This document shows, piece by piece, positions 42,907 to 52,921 of a stretch of DNA of 64,000 bases; the first letter of the stretch is position 1; every line of letters starts with the position of its first letter. A program made the position numbers and the translations under genes. The notes below the pieces were generated by a model. That model searched no databases. It saw nothing but the letters and a program-made list of their open reading frames with translations, and was not told where the DNA came from. The stretch is from an uncultured delta proteobacterium (GTDB lineage: Bacteria; Myxococcota_A; Polyangia; Fen-1088): NCBI GenBank assembly GCA_963723955.1, contig CAVRSU010000022.1, forward strand, positions 47,004 to 111,003. Direction: 5' to 3'.

Positions 42907-44460
42907 CTAGAAAGCCACCACGCCGCCCATCAGGGCACTGCCCGTCGCGCGCTGCACGCGCTGGCCGTCCAAGCGGAAGATCTCGCCTCCGCCGTCGAGA
43001 TTGAGCGAGAGGTAGGTTCTGCCGTAGAGGCGCGTGCTGACGACGATGGCGCCACCGTAGGCGAAGCCGTAGGAGTTTGTCACGACGCCGCTCGTGTCGC
43101 GCTGGCGTAGCATCGGCACGCCCAAGGATGGTCCGACCTGAATCGACCAGCGGGGATCGAGCAGCAGCGGCACCAGCAGGTCCATGCTCGCGGCCGCGCG
43201 CAGAAGCGACGATCGGTAGATGTCCTGCTGTGAATCGAAGGATGCGGCGCTGATGCGCCCGCGCAACATGGCCCATCGCAAGTCGCGTGCATAGGATAGC
43301 GCGAGGGTGCCAAGGTAGCCTGGGCTGCCCGGCACGACCGACGCGCTCACCCCGACGTAGGCGCCCAGGCGATTGCGTATCTCCAGATCGCCTCCTTTGC
43401 TGCGCGGGCTGCCTTGGGGGACGACGACCATGCCGTTGGGATCGAGCGTGGTGGCGCTGCCAGGGGCAAGCGCCAGGGTTCGCTCGCTAACGTTGCCCAT
43501 GGTTCGGCGTAGCACGCGATACTCGCCCGCAGGCAACGCCAGGTATAGATCTTCGCTTGCGCTCGATGGGACCTCGGCGATCACCTCGTCCTGCGTTCGG
43601 CTTAGAACCGTGTAAGTCGCGCCCGCTTCGCGCACGAAGGCCAGTCGCGCGTCCTTGGCCCGCGTCCGCGTAAGGACCACCTCGCCCGCGCCCGCCATGC
43701 GGTAGTCGTAGGTCGGGTGCTGGCCACCGGTCAGGCTTGCCGCCGTGTTCGCCAGGGTGCGCTTGAACGCGAACTGGTAGACCTCGCTCAAGGTCACCTG
43801 ACCGTCGTGCGACGAATCCGCAGCCCCGCGTAAACCGGCCATGATGCTTTGGCTGAAGAACGATCCCTTGAGATCGTCCGATTCTTGTGAAAATTCGTTT
43901 GCCGTCGAGGAGGTCACGATGGCCAGGCCCTTGACCTGGCCGGGATCGGCCAGCCGCACCTCGTAGCCGGGCACGCGCTTCCCGCCCTTCACGCCGGTCA
44001 GCGCGCCAGATTGGCAAGCGTCGACGAAGGCCACCCGCACATCCGCGGCGCTGAGCTGTTCGAGATAGCCGCGCAGATCGCGCAAGGGCAAACGCTCGGA
44101 ACCAATCTCGAGCGCTTCGTTGTCGCCGTGCCCGGAATAGTAGAAAAGGAACAGGGTCTGGTTGCCCCCGGCTTTCGCGGCCGCGAGCTTCTTGCGAACC
44201 TCTACCAGGCTCTTTTCGATCTCGGCGCGGCTGGCCCCACGCAAGGTCACGACGTCATCGAAGTCGCCAGCACTCTTGAGCAGATCTGCAAGGCGGCCGA
44301 CTTCCTCTTCGGCGTAGCGCAAGCTGCGCGCTGGATCCTTGCCGGCATTATTTCCAGCCACCAGGCCAAGGCGAACCTGCCGGGGCTGCGCGCGCGCGGG
44401 AGCGACGGCAAACCCAAGCCCCATTGCCAAGGCCAAAATGCCTGAAAAGAAGGACCGCAT
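42907..44460 (-). CDS. Secreted caspase-family (peptidase C14) protein with C-terminal beta-barrel-like domain
   Basis: Signal [24 protein letters not shown]; catalytic dyad context FYYSGHGD and VDACQSG; last 170 aa alternate hydrophobic/polar residues and end in VVAF. Confidence 0.75.
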
Positions 44461-44461
44461 C

Positions 44462-45229
44462 TCAGGGTCTCCTTAGTAGCATTGACACCTGCTCCACTGG
44501 TAGGTCAAGGGCCGTCATGCGGCGAACGTCACTATCCACCGCGGACAACGCGGCGCGCACCGCCGCGCGCACAACGTCATCGGCGAATTGAGTCTCCGCC
44601 CACAAGGCGAAGATACGTTCCCAGCCTTTGTGGTTGTCGAGCTGGACCGAGTCAGGCAGAAGCACGCGCGCGCCAGCGTCGATGCGCACGCCGACCAAGG
44701 CGTGCTCTTCGTAGTAGGGGAAAACCTTGCCCTGGTCGTCGACCCCGAATATCAGAAGGTAGCCAGGCCTGTCGTTGCTGTAGGCGAAGCGCAAGCGGTC
44801 GCCCTCGAGAAAGTCTCCGCCCTCCACCACGGGGAAGACCGTGTCCCCGCGCTTGCAATAGGTCTCGACGATGAGTCGGCCCTTGATGGCGGTTCCGCGG
44901 TGGTCTCCGGTGCCGTTCGTGAGCAAGGCGGGCCGAGCGATGAGCAGCAAAGCCGCCGCTGCCGGGACCAGAAAAACCGGCGCGAGGAAGCGCAGCCAGC
45001 GCTGCCTGCGCCTGCGCTGCCGGGCCACTTCCAGAATGTTGCGCGCAGCCCGAAGACTGGCCTCGGCCGGATCGGCGCCAAGCAACAGCGAGCGCGCATT
45101 GGAAATGTCGGCCAGCACGGCGGAGCAACGCCCGCAACCCCCCACGTGGGAGACAAATTCAGCAGGGCGCTCGGGCTCGGGATGGGCTTCCCAGCGCGAA
45201 AGTTCAAGGCGTGAAGGGCAGGCAGACAT
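44462..45229 (-). CDS. Anti-sigma factor: zf-HC2, one TM helix, periplasmic DUF4384-like domain
   Basis: HVGGCGRC (Hx3Cx2C); TM WLRFLAPVFLVPAAAALLLI; GDRLRFAYSNDRPGYLLIFGVDDQGKVFPYY. Confidence 0.7.
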   Translation of the reverse strand: MSACPSRLELSRWEAHPEPERPAEFVSHVGGCGRCSAVLADISNARSLLLGADPAEASLRAARNILEVARQRRRRQRWLRFLAPVFLVPAAAALLLIARPALLTNGTGDHRGTAIKGRLIVETYCKRGDTVFPVVEGGDFLEGDRLRFAYSNDRPGYLLIFGVDDQGKVFPYYEEHALVGVRIDAGARVLLPDSVQLDNHKGWERIFALWAETQFADDVVRAAVRAALSAVDSDVRRMTALDLPVEQVSMLLRRP

Positions 45230-45238
45230 CGTCGCTCC

Positions 45239-50095: not shown

Positions 50096-50236
50096 GGTGG
50101 TGGGTTCTTGGTCCTGATGATCCCCCCTTTTTACACACTCACTCGGCTCGAAGTGAGAAGAATCGCCATGCTCCAAACGCTGATATGGACAGATTCGTCG
50201 CCCTACATTGCCTCACAAGTGTAGGTCGTCTGGCGA

Positions 50237-51569
50237 CTACAGGTCGTAGACCTTGAGCTTGTCGTACAGCGTGCGCAGGCCAATTCCAAGTCGCGCCGCC
50301 GTCTGTTTTCGGTTGCCACCCGTTAGGGCCAGTGTGCGTCGGATGGCTTCCTTCTCCATGTCCTCAAGCTTCTCGCTGCCCGAGCCGTCAGCGGCCTGCG
50401 AGGCCGAAGCCGTGGGACCGGTCAGGATAAGGTCGGCGCCGAGCACGTTGCCTTCGGCCAAGATCGCCGCGCGCTCGAGAACATTGCCCAGTTCGCGCAC
50501 GTTGCCGGGCCAGGCATAGGATGCAAGGCGCGCGCGGGCCGCATCATCGAGCACCAGGGATGGGCGCCCAAGCTGCCGGGCGATGCGCGCCAGCAAGTCA
50601 TGGGCGAGCGGAATGATGTCGGCCAGACGCTCGCGCAGCGGCGGAATGCGGATGGGGAAGACTGCCAGGCGGTGGTAGAGATCCTCCCGAAATCGGCCAG
50701 CGCGCATCGCTTCGGTCAAATCGCTGTTGGTGGCGGCCACGATGCGCACGTCGACCTCGATGGTGCGCGTGCCGCCCACGCGCTCGAAGCGCCGCTCTTG
50801 CAGCACGCGCAGAAGCTTGGCCTGCAGCTGGGGGCGTAGTTCGCCAACCTCGTCGAGAAACAGGGTTCCGCCATCGGCCAGCTCGAAACGACCCCGGTGA
50901 CTCGACACGGCGCCTGTGAAGGCCCCCTTTTCGTGTCCGAACATCTCGCTCTCGAGAAGCGAGTCCGAGATGGCCGCGCAGTTGACCGCAACGAATGGCC
51001 CCGCCGCTCGCCGGCTTTCGCAATGCAGGACACGCGACAGTACCTCCTTGCCCGTGCCGCTCTCGCCCAAGAGCAGCACGGTGGCGTCCGTGGTCGCGAC
51101 CTTTCGCACTTGCCCCATCACCGCCTGCATGACCCGGTCCTTGGCCACGATGGACGGCTCACCGCTGTCCGGCGCGCGCATGCGCTGGGCGTCCTCGCGC
51201 AAGTGGCGACGCTCCATCGCGCGGCTGGCGACCAGGCGAAGCTCGTCGGGCCCCGACAGCGGCTTATCGAGGTAGTCGAAGGCCCCGAGCTTCATGGCCT
51301 CGACGGCGCCCGCCACGGTTCCGTGCGCGGTCAGCACCACCACCTCGGTTTCGGGTGACTCCGCGCGTGCCTTGCGCAAAAGCGACATGCCATCGAGCCC
51401 GGGCATCTTGAAATCCGTGATCATCAAGTGAAAGGATTCGCGGTCGAGCAGGCGCGCCGCCGATTCCCCGTCGGCTGCCAAGGCTCACGCGCAGCCCCTC
51501 GCCTTCCAGCACCTCCCCAATGAAGGTGCGAATGCCCTCTTCGTCGTCGACAACAAGTACGCGTTCCAT
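50237..51569 (-). CDS. Sigma-54-dependent response regulator (NtrC family), one frame break at 51478-51479
   Basis: REC domain [12 protein letters not shown]... split from the rest; GESGTGKE Walker A, GAFTGA motif, C-terminal Fis-type HTH. Confidence 0.85.
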
Positions 51570-51571
51570 GA

Positions 51572-52921
51572 CTAAACTCCTCGCGCTGGTGGGGGCAGAC
51601 GCACAGAAAAAACCGCGCCTCCGCCCGAATGATTGCGGGCGGTGATCACGCCGCCATGCCCCTCGACAATCCGACGAGCCAAGGCCAGGCCAAGCCCGGT
51701 GCCTCTCGCTCGTCGAGTGTAGAAAGGCTCGAAAACCCGTTCCTCTTCGCCGGGCGGAATGCCTTCGCCCCGGTCGCGAACCTCGAGGACCAGATGGCGA
51801 TCCGCCTGAACCTCAAGGGTGACATCGATGGGACCTCCGGCCGGCGAGGCGTCGCGTGCGTTGTGCAGCAGATTCACCAGCACCTCTTCCATGCGAGAGG
51901 TGTCGAGAGGCCAGGCCGGGGGAGCAGAATTGGCGTGGAGATGAATATCGGCACTGCCGGCGTCCTCGATGGCCGCGCGAACCACGGCCGCCGGATCGGC
52001 GGATTCGCACTCGACGGCACCCGTGCGCGCGAATTCCAGCACCTGGCGCGAAAGCTCTTCCAGACGCACGGTTTCGCGCAAGACGATCTCCGCGCCCTTG
52101 CGGCCGGCATGGTCGAGCGGAAGCTTTTCGAGCAGGAGCTGGGCGTGCCCCTTGAGCGAGGCCAAGGGATTCTTGATCTCGTGGCCGAGCACGGCGGACA
52201 TCTGGCCAAGAACCTTGAGCTGGCGATCGTGCTCAAGCTGCGCCGAGACCTTCTCGGCGTTGCGTGAGATGCGCCAAAATACCGCGCAGAGCCCCATCAG
52301 CACCAAGGCCGCCAAGAGGCTGACCGCGAGCGTGACACTCGCCCGCCACGCCAAGGCATGGGCCGCGGCTGAGTCCACCTCGAATAGGATTTGCTTGCCG
52401 TGCAACGGGTGATCGGGCGGCGCGGGCGAAGGAACCTGGTCCGACGGGCGATTCCCGGCGGCCCCCGGCGTGTCGCTGGGATGAATCAGCAGACGCGCGA
52501 TGGATCCGCCTGGGCCGAAGCCAATGGTCGCGCTCGGCCCCAGATTGCTGCCGCTCGACCACTGGACGTCCGTCGCTTGCTTGCCGGCCGAGGCGACAAG
52601 CGAGTGGTCCGGGTTGCGAACTTCGACGTAGCGCAGTCCCTGCGCGGCGAGCTCATCGAGGACCTCCTGCAACGCTTGCGCGTTGATCCCCGCGGCCGGC
52701 CGCAAGGCACGGCGAGCCGTGAAGGAAATCCCGATGGCTTGCCCCTGGGTGACCGTGCTCGCCGCATGCCTGATTCCAGCGTGAACCCAGAGCCCAGCCG
52801 CCACCAGCACGGCAGCCATGGCCGCCGACGAAACCAGCAAGCCCCAACGCAAGTAGGCTGGCGAGGTTTTCAAGAGCTCGCGTATCCTTTCTCGTCCGGC
52901 ATCGAACCGAGGGTTGAGCAA
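51572..52921 (-). CDS. Sensor histidine kinase
   Basis: Two TM segments, H-box LGHEIKNPL, HATPase N/G boxes; start uncertain (TTG 52921 or TTG 52873). Confidence 0.8.

What the first reader, a model, noticed from the sequence alone, without database searches (positions are those of the whole stretch)
42907..52921. Ten-kb co-directional cluster: two-component system with sigma-54 activator, three envelope proteins, ECF sigma/anti-sigma pair and a barrel-tethered caspase
Eight minus-strand genes lie in one orientation: histidine kinase, NtrC-type activator, TPR/beta-barrel protein, CxxCH beta-propeller lipoprotein, Cys-rich lipoprotein, ECF sigma, zf-HC2/DUF4384 anti-sigma and a secreted C14 caspase. 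Spacers are mostly very short (HK-NtrC 2 nt, TPR-lipoprotein 11 nt, sigma/anti-sigma 9 nt, anti-sigma/caspase 1 nt, and an ATGA overlap between lipoprotein and sigma). The two larger gaps are 141 nt between the NtrC gene and the TPR gene start and 166 nt between the two lipoprotein genes. Two regulatory tiers (enhancer-binding protein and ECF sigma) sit beside a predicted periplasmic or outer-membrane cysteine protease. That is what a regulated envelope proteolysis or cell-fate module would look like. I know of no characterised system with this composition.
Basis: partly seen in the sequence, partly recalled or inferred. Interest (0 to 1): 0.7.

Follow-up and report, generated by a model that had tools for sequence, protein, structure and literature searches.

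The report
Sigma factor switch with outer-membrane caspase
The core of this cluster is a three-gene switch found widely in myxobacteria (an alternative sigma factor, its membrane-bound inhibitor and a caspase-type protease anchored in the outer membrane) that appears to control neighbouring envelope and cellulase genes, which would give bacterial caspases a signalling job rather than a cell-death one.

Summary
All eight minus-strand genes, their domains and their spacers are present as described. In this assembly the NtrC and ECF sigma genes are each broken by a 1-nt insertion.

The eight genes are not one unit. The conserved core is ECF sigma → anti-sigma → caspase. The anti-sigma has an HxxxCxxC motif, one TM helix and a DUF4384-like periplasmic beta-domain. 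The caspase has a signal peptide, a C14 domain, a beta-sandwich and an 8-stranded OmpA-like barrel.

This triad recurs, usually with overlapping genes, in 69 of 80 Myxococcota loci, down to 33% caspase identity.

A two-block promoter-like motif, TTC[CT]CA-N16-[TG]GT[GT], occurs exactly three times in the 64 kb. All three copies are on the minus strand, upstream of TPR-barrel/Lipo4, of Lipo5/ECF/anti-sigma/caspase, and of an outer-membrane protein/GH9 cellulase pair that lies outside the reported span. The sites are conserved in relatives.

The histidine kinase/NtrC pair has its own conserved sigma-54 promoter and palindrome. It is absent from most related loci.

Best model, with the cleavage step inferred only: the outer-membrane-tethered caspase is the signal-transducing protease that cleaves its cognate anti-sigma. 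That releases a self-activating ECF sigma, which drives a local envelope and polysaccharide-utilisation regulon.

The sigma-caspase operon link was noted in 2012 but never characterised.

The parts
42907..44460 (-). Outer-membrane-tethered caspase, 517 aa. Signal peptide; C14 domain about 28-245 (His111/Cys149); beta-sandwich 271-339; 8-stranded barrel 363-516 that ends in Phe.
   Evidence: Pfam Peptidase_C14 at 2e-13. AF2 model. Foldseek finds OmpA, Ail, NspA and OmpX plus caspases 3, 7 and 8. H111, C149 and D147 are conserved in 81/81 sequences, and position 53 is D/E in 80/81. 63 of 75 complete homologues end in Phe.
44462..45229 (-). Anti-sigma factor, 255 aa. Cytoplasmic helical domain with H28-x3-C32-x2-C35; TM helix about 80-98; disordered linker 98-110; periplasmic DUF4384-like beta-domain 113-254.
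   Evidence: Pfam DUF4384 at 23 bits; 14 of 36 family members hit it. AF2 model with domain pLDDT about 90. A protein of the same architecture lies between ECF and caspase in 69 loci. Alignment A2.
45239..45920 (-). ECF sigma factor. It is broken by a 1-nt insertion near 45500-45523 in this assembly and is an intact 222 aa in relative L081.
   Evidence: NCBIfam TIGR02937 at 62 bits against a cut-off of 42.9. Frameshift mapped. Intact homologue.
45917..46522 (-). Lipo5, a small Cys-rich lipoprotein of 201 aa with no known family. It is the first gene of the ECF operon in this sub-clade and is absent in L003, L004, L009 and L044.
   Evidence: The start may be 46545, as in L081.
46577..46602 (-). 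Promoter-like motif P_ecf, TTCCCA-N16-TGTT, in the 166-nt gap upstream of Lipo5/ECF.
   Evidence: Best PWM hit in the whole window, score 25. No simulated window reached 25 in 100 trials. The strict pattern gives 2 hits against 0.04 expected. The same site lies upstream of Lipo5 or ECF in relatives that were not used for training.
46689..48578 (-). Lipo4, a 629-aa lipoprotein with an invariant CxGCH(S/A)ATPD motif and no known family.
   Evidence: It stays linked to the TPR-barrel gene in both gene arrangements.
48590..50098 (-). TPR-barrel protein, 501-502 aa. Signal peptide, N-terminal TPR, acidic linker and a Gly/aromatic-rich C-terminal half. The barrel is not verified.
   Evidence: Pfam TPR_12. 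Homologues lie next to the triad in the close clade and, inverted, in the 59% clade.
50134..50159 (-). Promoter-like motif P_tpr, TTCTCA-N16-TGTG, upstream of the TPR-barrel gene.
   Evidence: It is one of only three hits of the relaxed pattern in the window. The element is conserved in all 11 loci whatever gene lies upstream.
41313..41338 (-). Promoter-like motif P_omp, TTCCCA-N16-TGTT, upstream of OMP638.
   Evidence: Second-best PWM hit in the window, score 17.1, against 0.01 hits per window expected. The same motif lies upstream of the OMP638 homologue in every close-clade locus with that region and, as TTCCCA-N16-TGGTT, in most 59%-clade loci.
39264..41180 (-). OMP638, a secreted 638-aa protein that ends in WW. 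It is a putative outer-membrane protein with no known family.
   Evidence: It directly follows the caspase in relatives that lack the IS.
36886..39262 (-). GH9 endoglucanase lipoprotein (CBM_4_9 + CelD_N + Glyco_hydro_9). It starts 2 nt after the OMP638 stop. It is frameshifted in this assembly and is an intact 790 aa in L081.
   Evidence: Pfam. Junction. The OMP-GH9 pair is found in 16 loci.
41445..42874 (-). IS110-family insertion (DEDD transposase) between the caspase and P_omp. It is not part of the system.
   Evidence: Pfam DEDD_Tnp_IS110 and Transposase_20. Absent in L081, L001 and L002. The breakpoint lies in a hairpin after the caspase stop.
50237..51569 (-). NtrC-type sigma-54 activator, frameshifted near 51481-51486 in this assembly. 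It is a neighbour, probably not part of the conserved module.
   Evidence: Pfam. Frameshift. Present only in L001-L004, L009, L028 and L081.
51572..52921 (-). Histidine kinase with two TM segments, HisKA and HATPase_c. The start is uncertain and probably lies downstream of 52921.
   Evidence: Pfam. L081 calls it at 428 aa.
52918..52998 (-). Sigma-54-type promoter GGCACG-N4-TTGCT (52918-52932) and palindrome TGCGGAATCTGCA (52986-52998) upstream of HK/NtrC.
   Evidence: Both are conserved in 7 loci. The palindrome is unique in the window at 0 mismatches.

Best explanation
The locus is built around a three-component trans-envelope signalling unit that is widespread in Myxococcota:
- an ECF sigma factor;
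- its single-pass anti-sigma factor, with a cytoplasmic zinc-motif sigma-binding domain, one TM helix, a linker of about 13 residues and a periplasmic DUF4384-like beta-domain;
- a caspase-family (C14, metacaspase-like) cysteine protease held on the periplasmic face of the outer membrane by its own 8-stranded OmpA-like barrel.

Proposed mechanism:
1. An unknown envelope or extracellular cue activates or repositions the caspase.
2. The caspase cuts the periplasmic part of its cognate anti-sigma. This is site-1 cleavage, probably after Arg/Lys.
3. A site-2 protease of the RseP type, and then cytoplasmic proteases, remove the rest of the anti-sigma.
4. The freed sigma transcribes from TTC[CT]CA-N16-TGT[TG]-type promoters.

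In this organism those promoters precede three units:
- its own operon, Lipo5-ECF-anti-sigma-caspase, which gives positive feedback;
- the TPR-barrel/Lipo4 pair;
- the OMP638/GH9-cellulase pair.
The local output therefore looks like an envelope apparatus for polysaccharide (cellulose-type) utilisation.

The histidine kinase/NtrC pair is a separately controlled, sigma-54-dependent neighbour.

Shown here:
- the gene content and architectures;
- conservation of the triad;
- the motif and where it lies;
- conservation of the catalytic residues.

Inferred:
- that the motif is the ECF promoter;
- that the caspase cleaves the anti-sigma;
- the cleavage specificity;
- the nature of the signal.
For: 1. 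Triad conservation. tblastn of the window proteins against 80 loci fetched with the caspase shows ECF upstream of the caspase in nearly all. In 69 loci a 229-359 aa (mostly 245-285 aa) single-TM protein fills the interval, mostly with 4-nt start/stop overlaps. The other cluster genes occur only in the closer clades.

2. Invariant partner, variable output. The motif-bearing neighbours differ between lineages. They are OMP638-GH9 and TPR-barrel-Lipo4 here, alginate lyases plus a DctPQM TRAP transporter in L024/L085 and L018, and a 315-aa lipoprotein in L042 and L051. The caspase always stays with the sigma/anti-sigma pair. That fits a regulatory component better than an output.

3. Several triads per genome. 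Two MAGs in the set carry two triads each (L020/L023 and L021/L031). Four of the five M. xanthus metacaspases lie in sigma-factor operons (PMC3501461). This implies one protease per sigma/anti-sigma pair.

4. Active enzyme with an acidic S1 pocket. His111, Cys149 and Asp147 are conserved in 81/81 sequences, and position 53 is Asp/Glu in 80/81. Position 53 aligns with the Asp of the metacaspase CxND motif. Asp at Cys-2 is the metacaspase-type S1 residue; that point rests on my own knowledge of the MCA2 and Yca1 structures.

5. Topology. The caspase has a signal peptide and a C-terminal OmpA-like barrel, and terminal Phe is family-wide. The anti-sigma beta-domain is joined to the TM helix by a disordered linker, residues 98-110. 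A family-wide [RK]-x-[KR]-G motif lies at the linker/domain boundary, and the C-terminal tail is basic.

6. Promoter. The strict pattern gives 2 hits in the window against 0.04 expected. The relaxed pattern gives 3 hits against 0.57 expected, and 3.5% of simulated windows reach 3. All hits are on the coding strand, in gaps directly upstream of cluster genes. The sites are conserved in relatives that were not used to derive the motif. The distant clade has a related two-block motif, TTTC-N17-GGGTCCAA, just upstream of its ECF genes. This is what co-evolving, autoregulated ECF promoters look like.

7. Precedents.
- M. xanthus DdvA is an anti-sigma with a fused periplasmic caspase-like CHAT domain, proposed to act as its own site-1 protease ahead of RseP (PMC11506125).
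- In type III-E CRISPR, the caspase-like Csx29 cleaves the sigma-binding protein Csx30. [quoted passage not shown]
- Cyanobacterial orthocaspases carry DUF4384 (PMC7475262).
Against: - No experiment or direct computation shows cleavage of the anti-sigma.
- The conserved [RK]xKG motif lies in the first beta-strand and hairpin of the folded domain in the model. It may be structural rather than a cleavage site.
- No caspase/anti-sigma fusion was found among the 150 best relatives of the periplasmic domain.
- The DUF4384 assignment is below Pfam's threshold for the window protein.
- The motif has not been shown to be bound by this sigma. It does not look like the common GGAAC/CGT ECF consensus.
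- The relaxed pattern alone is only modestly improbable (P about 0.035). The strength of the case lies in position and conservation.
- Conservation of the catalytic residues is partly biased, because the loci were fetched with patterns that cover one or other catalytic motif.
- The polysaccharide link holds for some lineages only. L087, for example, has none.
- ECF and NtrC are frameshifted in this assembly, so the system could be defective in this particular strain.
Confidence: 0.5

Rival explanations
1. The caspase is an output of the ECF response and not its trigger. Once the sigma is released by some other route, the co-transcribed outer-membrane-anchored protease processes, matures or clears envelope proteins, for example OMP638, the TPR-barrel protein, lipoproteins or misfolded outer-membrane proteins.
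For: The caspase is the last gene of the autoregulated operon, so its level rises after activation. Envelope proteins share the promoter motif. Known site-1 proteases such as DegS and Prc are usually not encoded in the sigma operon; that point rests on my own knowledge.
Against: The putative substrates differ completely between lineages, whereas the caspase/anti-sigma pairing does not change. Paralogous triads within one genome argue for pair-specific function (PMC3501461). DUF4384 recurs with caspase-like proteases in unrelated contexts.
Confidence: 0.22
2. The caspase is a binding partner that holds the pathway off, or a co-sensor. In this reading it is an RseB-like or FecA-like partner of the anti-sigma periplasmic domain. 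Signalling would occur by contact or release across the periplasm, with proteolysis of the anti-sigma carried out by other proteases. The caspase might instead cleave itself or a ligand.
For: The three-part sigma / inner-membrane anti-sigma / outer-membrane protein layout mirrors FecI-FecR-FecA cell-surface signalling (PMC5411451 and PMC11637429, seen). Both tethers are short, so contact would depend on envelope geometry.
Against: The His/Cys dyad and the acidic S1 residues are strictly conserved across 81 sequences down to 33% identity. That is not expected for a pure scaffold.
Confidence: 0.13
3. One reading: all eight genes form one two-tier module (two-component system plus ECF) for regulated envelope proteolysis or cell fate.
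For: The genes are co-directional with short spacers. The order HD-GYP/HK/NtrC/TPR is kept in the closest relatives.
Against: HK/NtrC are missing from L005, L007, L010, L044, the whole 59% clade and all distant loci. They have their own conserved sigma-54 promoter and palindrome, and the palindrome is found nowhere else in the window. No sigma-54 promoter lies upstream of the TPR, Lipo5 or OMP genes. The regulon content points to nutrient use and not to death.
Confidence: 0.08
4. The shared motif is not a promoter of this ECF sigma. It could be the site of another regulator, or sequence retained by common descent, in which case the envelope genes are merely syntenic neighbours.
For: The motif is unlike textbook ECF promoters. 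Close relatives share much intergenic sequence by descent. No transcript data are available.
Against: The two blocks and the 16-nt spacing are kept while the spacer sequence diverges. This holds across clades with 59% caspase identity and after an inversion of the OMP operon. The motif is absent from the remaining 50 kb of the window. The distant clade shows a related motif at the same position before its ECF genes.
Confidence: 0.07

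Closest known systems
DdvS/DdvA of Myxococcus xanthus: an ECF sigma and a transmembrane anti-sigma with a periplasmic TPR-CHAT caspase-like domain (PMC11506125)
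   Same: Same phylum. ECF sigma plus a single-pass zinc-motif anti-sigma. A caspase-fold His/Cys protease module sits in the periplasm and is proposed to perform site-1 cleavage ahead of RseP. The system is autoregulated and controls a local regulon.
   Different: In DdvA the protease is a CHAT domain fused to the anti-sigma, and cleavage would be autoproteolysis in trans within a dimer. Here the protease is a separate C14 protein anchored in the outer membrane, and the anti-sigma carries a small DUF4384-like domain. The output is CBASS/CRISPR defence for DdvS, and envelope and glycan-degrading genes here.
Type III-E CRISPR 'Craspase': Csx29 (TPR-CHAT) cleaves Csx30, which binds the ECF-type sigma RpoE (PMC10028731; bioRxiv 10.1101/2022.08.17.504292)
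   Same: A caspase-like protease cleaves a sigma-sequestering protein. Some Csx30 C-terminal domains are DUF4384, the domain on this anti-sigma.
   Different: Craspase is cytoplasmic, RNA-guided, associated with CRISPR, and uses a CHAT protease rather than C14. There is no CRISPR here, and both partners face the periplasm.
Cell-surface signalling of the FecI/FecR/FecA type, and Bacteroidetes PUL ECF-sigma/anti-sigma/SusC-like transducers
   Same: Three-part layout: cytoplasmic ECF sigma, inner-membrane anti-sigma and an outer-membrane beta-barrel protein with a periplasmic signalling part. These systems control nutrient-uptake and glycan-utilisation genes encoded alongside.
   Different: The outer-membrane component here is an 8-stranded anchor with a protease, not a 22-stranded TonB-dependent transporter. 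The anti-sigma is not FecR-type. Site-1 cleavage in cell-surface signalling is by Prc or self-cleavage.
SigI/RsgI of Clostridium thermocellum (PMC10328401)
   Same: Multiple paralogous sigma/anti-sigma pairs, each tied to polysaccharide-degrading genes. Signalling is proteolytic, followed by RseP.
   Different: The organism is Gram-positive, the sigma is SigI-type, the anti-sigma carries carbohydrate-binding modules and cleaves itself, and no caspase is involved.
Bacterial metacaspases/orthocaspases; the sigma-factor/metacaspase operons noted by Asplund-Samuelsson et al. 2012 (PMC3501461)
   Same: Same protease family. That survey already reported the operon link to sigma-70-family factors in Myxococcus, Anaeromyxobacter, Haliangium and Sorangium.
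   Different: That survey did not describe the anti-sigma, the outer-membrane barrel anchor, a promoter or regulon, or any mechanism. It discussed the genes in the context of programmed cell death.

Membership tests
ECF (group 4) sigma factor with class I anti-sigma | Sigma with only the sigma2 and sigma4 domains | tested here: met
   Sigma70_r2 and Sigma70_r4_2 on the frame-repaired product. TIGR02937 at 62 bits against a cut-off of 42.9. Intact 222-aa orthologue in L081.
ECF (group 4) sigma factor with class I anti-sigma | Co-transcribed membrane anti-sigma with an N-terminal anti-sigma domain (HxxxCxxC zinc motif) and one TM helix | tested here: met
   H28-x3-C32-x2-C35 is invariant in A3. 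The model has helices 7-50 and a TM helix. zf-HC2 is detected in 3 of 36 family members. The distant clade lacks the zinc motif. The gap to the ECF gene is 9 nt, and the genes overlap in most relatives.
ECF (group 4) sigma factor with class I anti-sigma | Autoregulation from a group-specific two-block promoter | tested here: inconclusive
   A conserved TTCCCA-N16-TGTT motif lies upstream of the operon in the window and its relatives. There is no transcript or binding data.
ECF (group 4) sigma factor with class I anti-sigma | Release by regulated intramembrane proteolysis (site-1, then an RseP-type site-2 protease) | not testable with these tools
   No RseP gene lies in the window. This needs cleavage assays.
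Peptidase family C14 (metacaspase/orthocaspase type) | Caspase/haemoglobinase fold with a His-Cys dyad | tested here: met
   Pfam PF00656 at 51 bits against a cut-off of 21.4. Foldseek matches to caspases 3, 7 and 8. H111 and C149 are conserved in 81/81 sequences.
Peptidase family C14 (metacaspase/orthocaspase type) | Acidic S1 pocket giving Arg/Lys specificity | tested here: inconclusive
   D147 (Cys-2) is conserved in 81/81 sequences, and D/E53 aligns with the metacaspase-9 CxND Asp in a weak profile match at E=0.12. No activity data.
OmpA/OmpX-like 8-stranded outer-membrane barrel | Eight antiparallel transmembrane strands and a C-terminal aromatic beta-signal | tested here: met
   AF2 strands 363-516 with pLDDT 80-93. 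OmpA 9fzc with TM 0.74 and E=1e-7. Terminal Phe in 63 of 75 homologues.
DUF4384 (PF14326) | Pfam model match above the gathering score | tested here: not met
   The window protein scores 23.1 bits against 27. 14 of 36 family members match at E<=0.01, the best at 6e-6. Several database orthologues carry a precomputed PF14326 hit or are named DUF4384. I treat it as a divergent relative, not a confirmed member.
DdvA-type anti-sigma (fused periplasmic TPR-CHAT) | TPR-CHAT domain on the same polypeptide as the anti-sigma domain | tested here: not met
   The anti-sigma is 255 aa with a beta-sandwich only. The protease is a separate gene.
FecIRA-type cell-surface signalling | TonB-dependent transducer with an N-terminal signalling domain, and a FecR-type anti-sigma | tested here: not met
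   No TonB_dep_Rec, STN or FecR hits on any cluster product.
NtrC-type two-component system controlling the cluster | A sigma-54 (-24/-12) promoter upstream of the target genes | tested here: not met
   Within the cluster, only the HK/NtrC operon itself has a conserved GGCACG-N4-TTGCT site. None lies upstream of the TPR, Lipo5 or OMP genes.
Known anti-phage defence systems (PADLOC) | A match of cluster proteins to defence-system models | tested here: not met
   Only a generic 23-bit 'caspase' hit. NCBIfam caspase_w_EACC1 scores 54.6 against a cut-off of 140.

The most novel reading that the evidence does not exclude
Myxococcota use a family of caspase-based trans-envelope switches. An outer-membrane-anchored metacaspase-like protease is the signal-activated site-1 protease for a cognate DUF4384 anti-sigma factor. 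Each paralogous triad switches on its own small regulon, including cellulose- and alginate-utilisation loci. On this reading, DUF4384 is a general module for recognition by, or as substrate of, caspase-like proteases. That would tie together these triads, the Craspase target Csx30 and the orthocaspase fusions.
Probability: 0.35. Interest if true: 0.8.

Novelty: new variant of a known kind. Interest (0 to 1): 0.62.

Why it matters
- **A defined role for bacterial caspases.** Bacterial caspase homologues are abundant, but almost none has a defined physiological role. They are usually discussed as possible cell-death enzymes. A conserved operon in which the caspase is wired to a sigma/anti-sigma pair, sits in the envelope and travels with nutrient-acquisition genes would give a concrete, testable non-death function: proteolytic signal transduction across the periplasm.
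- **A new class of site-1 protease.** It would add a new class to ECF signalling. It would also connect the fused DdvA system and the CRISPR Craspase/Csx30 pathway through a common caspase-DUF4384-sigma logic.
- **Regulators of polysaccharide degradation.** It would identify regulators of cellulose and alginate degradation in uncultured soil Polyangia.
- **Testability.** M. xanthus carries several such operons, so the hypothesis can be tested directly in a genetic model.

Tried and rejected
1. **Sigma-54 promoter upstream of the TPR-barrel, Lipo5 or OMP genes.** A TGGCAC-N5-TTGC scan with up to 2 mismatches gave 72 hits against 74 expected, none in those gaps. An alignment of 11 upstream regions showed no GG-N10-GC element. 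I rejected NtrC control of the cluster.

2. **The distant-clade ECF motif in the window.** Scanning for TTTC-N17-GGGTC gave no hit. The window's clade uses a related but distinct motif.

3. **Families for OMP638, TPR-barrel, Lipo4 and Lipo5.** Pfam and NCBIfam found nothing beyond TPR_12.

4. **PADLOC defence models.** Nothing meaningful.

5. **Foldseek of the anti-sigma model against the PDB.** No hit below E=0.01. There were only weak beta-sandwich matches (Wzt C-terminal domain, RbmA, a CBM, a proteinase inhibitor), which I did not use.

6. **Fusions of the anti-sigma periplasmic domain to caspases.** The top 150 of 1662 representative hits are almost all stand-alone anti-sigma-sized proteins. 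The longer ones carried no C14 domain.

7. **ECF group assignment.** I looked for it in the 2021 ECF reclassification paper. The main text has no mention of caspase or DUF4384, and no supplements are held.

8. **Generic sigma-70 promoter and terminator scan.** Uninformative in this GC-rich DNA.

9. **The conserved GGCTATGCT stretch inside the ECF 5' region as an internal promoter.** I could not separate this from coding conservation.

10. **The frameshifts as real pseudogenes.** This is not excluded. I judged it less likely because housekeeping aconitase is also split. Two related MAGs with MFD isolate names carry their own frameshifts in the same genes, one at a different site and one a separate insertion a few codons away. 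An independent assembly of a close relative is intact.

Full report
**1. Observation**

Their products carry the stated domains:
- The kinase has HisKA and HATPase_c.
- The activator has Response_reg, Sigma54_activat and HTH_8.
- The third product has an N-terminal TPR_12.
- The fourth and fifth match no Pfam or NCBIfam family.
- The sixth has Sigma70_r2 and r4_2 and passes the NCBIfam ECF model TIGR02937.
- The seventh has an HxxxCxxC motif and a sub-threshold DUF4384 match (23.1 bits against a cut-off of 27).
- The eighth is a Peptidase_C14.

First, the NtrC gene changes frame near 51481-51486 and the ECF sigma gene changes frame near 45500-45523. Each break is a single extra base relative to four relatives. 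Second, the cluster does not end at the caspase.

**2. Are the frameshifts real?**

Several observations bear on this:
- Two related MAGs with MFD isolate names have their own frameshifts in the same genes. L001 has one in NtrC at a different place. L002 has one in ECF, a different insertion a few codons from the window's.
- In the window, a GH9 gene, the aconitase gene and the 5' end of the Lipo5 gene also look split.
- An independent soil-metagenome assembly of a close relative (L081) is 92-95% identical in DNA. It has the same gene order with every gene intact: NtrC 443 aa, ECF 222 aa, GH9 790 aa, aconitase 900 aa.

I therefore treat the frameshifts as probable assembly indels. Strain-specific decay is not excluded.

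**3. What is conserved**

I used the caspase to collect 80 loci from one-genome-per-species contigs. Nearly all are Myxococcota MAGs, and the set includes Myxococcus sp. Y35.

tblastn of all window products against these loci gave a clear pattern:
- The ECF gene lies about 1.3-1.5 kb upstream of the caspase in almost every locus with enough flank, down to 33% caspase identity.
- In 69 loci the interval holds a 229-359 aa (mostly 245-285 aa) protein with a single TM segment, mostly at residues 65-111. Its start usually overlaps the ECF stop by 4 nt, and its end abuts or overlaps the caspase start.
- HK, NtrC, the TPR-barrel protein, Lipo4 and Lipo5 are found only in the closer clades.

The unit under selection is therefore the triad ECF / anti-sigma / caspase, and not the eight genes.

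**4. Anatomy of the triad**

*The caspase family.* It is uniform in length, at 509-540 aa for complete ORFs.
- The AlphaFold2 model has a caspase fold, a seven-strand beta-sandwich (271-339) and eight long strands (363-516) at pLDDT 80-93.
- The best PDB matches to the model are the OmpA transmembrane domain (TM 0.74), Ail, NspA and OmpX, together with animal caspases.
- 63 of 75 complete homologues end in Phe, the usual outer-membrane beta-signal.
- With a signal peptide and an even-stranded barrel, the protease domain should face the periplasm. This follows from the standard topology of OmpA-like barrels and was not tested.
- His111, Cys149 and Asp147 are conserved in all 81 sequences, and position 53 is Asp or Glu in 80 of 81.
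- In a weak profile match to Arabidopsis metacaspase-9 (E=0.12), position 53 aligns with the Asp of the CxND motif.
- Asp at Cys-2 plus that Asp form the acidic S1 pocket of metacaspases. This rests on my own knowledge of the MCA2 and Yca1 structures. Arg/Lys specificity is therefore a reasonable but unproven inference.

*The anti-sigma model*.
- It has cytoplasmic helices and a long helix that includes the TM segment.
- A disordered linker spans residues 98-110.
- A well-predicted beta-domain spans 113-254.
- The beta-domain has no significant structural relative in the PDB.
- Across the family, the most conserved periplasmic features are an [RK]-x-[KR]-G motif at the linker/domain boundary and a basic C-terminal tail, LLRRP in this clade.
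- The periplasmic domain defines a large family of 1662 clusters at 50% identity. Nearly all have the same anti-sigma architecture.

**5. A shared promoter-like motif**

*In the distant clade.* Upstream of the ECF genes I found TTTC-N17-GGGTC(C)AA in 25 of the 66 upstream regions examined, which were drawn from all clades.

*In the window's clade and the 59%-identity clade.* A related motif, TTCCCA-N16-(G/T)TGTTC, lies upstream of the ECF gene.

*PWM scan of the window.*
- I built a PWM from 14 such sites, none from the window, and scanned both strands of the 64 kb. The two best hits were at 46605, in the 166-nt gap upstream of Lipo5/ECF (score 25.0), and at 41341, upstream of the 638-aa secreted protein beyond the caspase (score 17.1). 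The third-best hit scored 9.7.
- In 100 simulated windows, hits of 17 or more occurred 0.01 times per window.

*Pattern counts.*
- The plain pattern TTCCCA-N15-16-T[GT]GTT occurs twice in the window against 0.04 expected. In 519 kb of related loci, almost every occurrence lies upstream of Lipo5/ECF or of the OMP638 homologue.
- Aligning the region upstream of the TPR-barrel gene in 11 loci revealed a third conserved copy, TTCTCA-N16-TGTGTAA. It is present whatever gene lies upstream.
- The relaxed pattern TTC[CT]CA-N16-[TG]GT[GT] then has exactly three hits in the window, at 50159, 46602 and 41338. All three are on the minus strand, and each precedes one transcription unit of this cluster. The expectation is 0.57 hits, and 3.5% of simulations reach three.

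I read this as the promoter recognised by the ECF sigma. That implies autoregulation and a three-promoter local regulon. It remains an inference, because no transcript or binding data exist.

**6. The regulon and the true extent of the locus**

- In relatives, OMP638 directly follows the caspase.
- In the window, a 1.4-kb IS110-family element (DEDD transposase) has inserted into a hairpin just after the caspase stop. It leaves the OMP promoter motif in place.
- OMP638 is followed 2 nt later by a lipoprotein with CBM_4_9, CelD_N and Glyco_hydro_9 domains. This pair is conserved in 16 loci.
- In the 59% clade the genes are rearranged but still together. In most of these loci OMP638, GH9 and the TPR-barrel gene run divergently from ECF/anti-sigma/caspase, and Lipo4 continues the run in the two loci where it was found. 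A TTCCCA-N16-TGGTT site faces the OMP gene.
- In a 54-58% clade (L024/L085 and L018) the same motif lies upstream of a DctPQM TRAP transporter. In L024/L085 it also lies upstream of two alginate lyases next to the triad.
- In two distant loci a second motif copy precedes a homologous 315-aa lipoprotein.
- Other loci have no carbohydrate genes nearby.

So the triad is a portable regulatory unit whose outputs differ by lineage. In this organism the output looks like an envelope apparatus for cellulose-type polysaccharide use.

Lipo4 carries an invariant CxGCH(S/A)ATPD motif. That would fit a c-type haem site, but it is unverified.

**7. The two-component system**

- HK and NtrC occur next to the cluster only in the closest relatives.
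- Upstream of the kinase there is a sigma-54-type promoter, GGCACG-N4-TTGCT (52918-52932), and about 55 nt further upstream a palindrome, TGCGGAATCTGCA (52986-52998). Both are conserved in seven loci.
- The palindrome occurs nowhere else in the window.
- No -24/-12 site lies in front of the other cluster genes.

The simplest reading is an autoregulated sigma-54 operon that happens to be a neighbour. 'Two regulatory tiers' is not supported.

**8. Mechanism**

Why would a protease be welded to a sigma/anti-sigma pair across hundreds of lineages while the outputs change? The most economical answer is that it belongs to the switch. Supporting points:
- There is one caspase per pair where genomes have several triads. 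Two MAGs carry two each, and four of the five M. xanthus metacaspases lie in sigma operons (PMC3501461).
- The catalytic and S1 residues are strictly conserved.
- The topology puts the protease and the anti-sigma sensor domain in the same compartment.
- There are three literature precedents:
  - M. xanthus DdvA carries a caspase-like CHAT domain on the anti-sigma itself, and it is proposed to self-cleave before RseP acts (PMC11506125).
  - The CRISPR-associated caspase-like Csx29 cleaves the sigma-binding Csx30. [quoted passage not shown]
  - Cyanobacterial orthocaspases carry DUF4384 (PMC7475262).

I therefore favour the caspase as the signal-dependent site-1 protease of its cognate anti-sigma, with positive feedback through the shared operon. 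I put the whole model at about 0.5. The component steps differ in certainty:
- triad as a conserved operon: above 0.9;
- motif as the ECF promoter and the local regulon: about 0.7;
- caspase cleaves the anti-sigma: about 0.4.

The main rivals are that the caspase is an output acting on envelope proteins, or that it is a binding partner and co-sensor. The conserved [RK]xKG motif lies in the first strand of the folded domain, so it may be structural. That weakens the cleavage-site argument. No caspase/anti-sigma fusions turned up.

Both tethers are short: 13 disordered residues on the anti-sigma and about 20 on the caspase. Contact may therefore depend on periplasm geometry. This is speculation.

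**9. Comparison with what is known, and novelty**

The parts are members of known families: ECF sigma, class I anti-sigma, C14 peptidase and OmpA-like barrel.

The system as a whole is not a member of any of the following:
- the DdvA type, because there is no fused CHAT domain;
- the FecIRA type, because there is no TonB-dependent transducer and no FecR;
- Craspase, because there is no CRISPR and the system is not cytoplasmic;
- any PADLOC defence system.

A 2012 survey noted that Myxococcus, Anaeromyxobacter, Haliangium and Sorangium metacaspases lie in operons with sigma-70-family factors, and discussed them in a cell-death context. I found no paper that describes the anti-sigma partner, the barrel anchor, a promoter, a regulon or a mechanism.

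I rate it a new variant of a known kind: ECF trans-envelope signalling with a dedicated outer-membrane caspase.

**10. Verdict**

There is a real, conserved caspase/anti-sigma/ECF module tied to the neighbouring envelope genes. The two-component system is not part of it, and a cell-fate role has no support.
- The finding is interesting because it offers a testable, non-death function for a large family of bacterial caspases, and a regulator for polysaccharide-degrading loci in soil myxobacteria.
- Every mechanistic step beyond gene content, conservation and motif placement is inference.

Noticed in passing
window 41445-42874: An IS110-family element (DEDD_Tnp_IS110 + Transposase_20 ORF, about 41456-42640, minus strand) has inserted into the hairpin GGGAGGGTTCCCAAACCCTCCC that follows the caspase stop in relative L081. 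It separates the caspase from the OMP638 promoter motif without destroying either.
   Followed up: partly
window about 51481, about 45520, 37112-37527, 54284-55384, 46523-46546: At least five genes in a span of about 23 kb are split by small indels: NtrC, ECF sigma, GH9, aconitase and the 5' end of Lipo5. All are intact in the 92-95% identical assembly L081. Two related MAGs with MFD isolate names have their own frameshifts in the same genes, one at a different site and one a separate insertion a few codons away. This suggests an error-prone assembly, so ORF-based readings of this window need care.
   Followed up: partly
window 52918-52998 (minus strand): A conserved sigma-54-type promoter, GGCACG-N4-TTGCT, and an upstream palindrome, TGCGGAATCTGCA, precede the HK/NtrC operon in seven loci. 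This is probably an autoregulated enhancer site. The targets of this NtrC elsewhere in the genome are unknown.
   Followed up: partly
window 14834-14848 (+): A perfect TGGCAC-N5-TTGC sigma-54 consensus (TGGCACTTAAATTGC), the only zero-mismatch hit in the window. The gene downstream was not examined.
   Followed up: no
window 46689-48578 (Lipo4), residues about 267-276: The motif C-x-G-C-H-(S/A)-A/S-T-P-D is invariant in 10 homologues down to 48% identity, as are five other cysteines. It could be a single c-type haem site or a metal site in a lipoprotein of unknown family that travels with the TPR-barrel gene.
   Followed up: partly
window about 45800-45830 (ECF 5' region); same place in L001-L008, L027, L044: The DNA stretch GGTCGGCTATGCT...GCCGTGGAAAA inside the N-terminal extension of the ECF ORF is unusually well conserved. 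The true ECF start may be the GTG here, which would give an N-terminus like that of the distant homologues. The ATGA overlap with Lipo5 would then not be the real junction.
   Followed up: partly
L024/L085 1-8500; L018 1000-6400: In a 54-58% clade the triad lies beside an alginate-utilisation cluster: a DctPQM TRAP transporter, a short-chain dehydrogenase/epimerase, a cupin and two alginate lyases. Units in that cluster are preceded by the same TTCCCA-N16-TGTT motif, including a divergent pair of sites between the two lyases.
   Followed up: partly
L042 4616-5632; L051 14534-15544: In the distant clade, a second copy of that clade's ECF-upstream motif (TTTC-N17-GGGTCCAAC) precedes homologous 313-316 aa lipoproteins (56% identical) with no known family. 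This is a candidate conserved regulon member there.
   Followed up: partly
window 53047-54267 (minus) and 54284-57008 (plus): An HD-GYP-type response regulator (Response_reg + HD_5) and aconitase flank the cluster. The order HD-GYP/HK/NtrC is syntenic in the closest relatives. In L007 the HD-GYP gene lies directly upstream of the TPR-barrel gene, without HK/NtrC.
   Followed up: no
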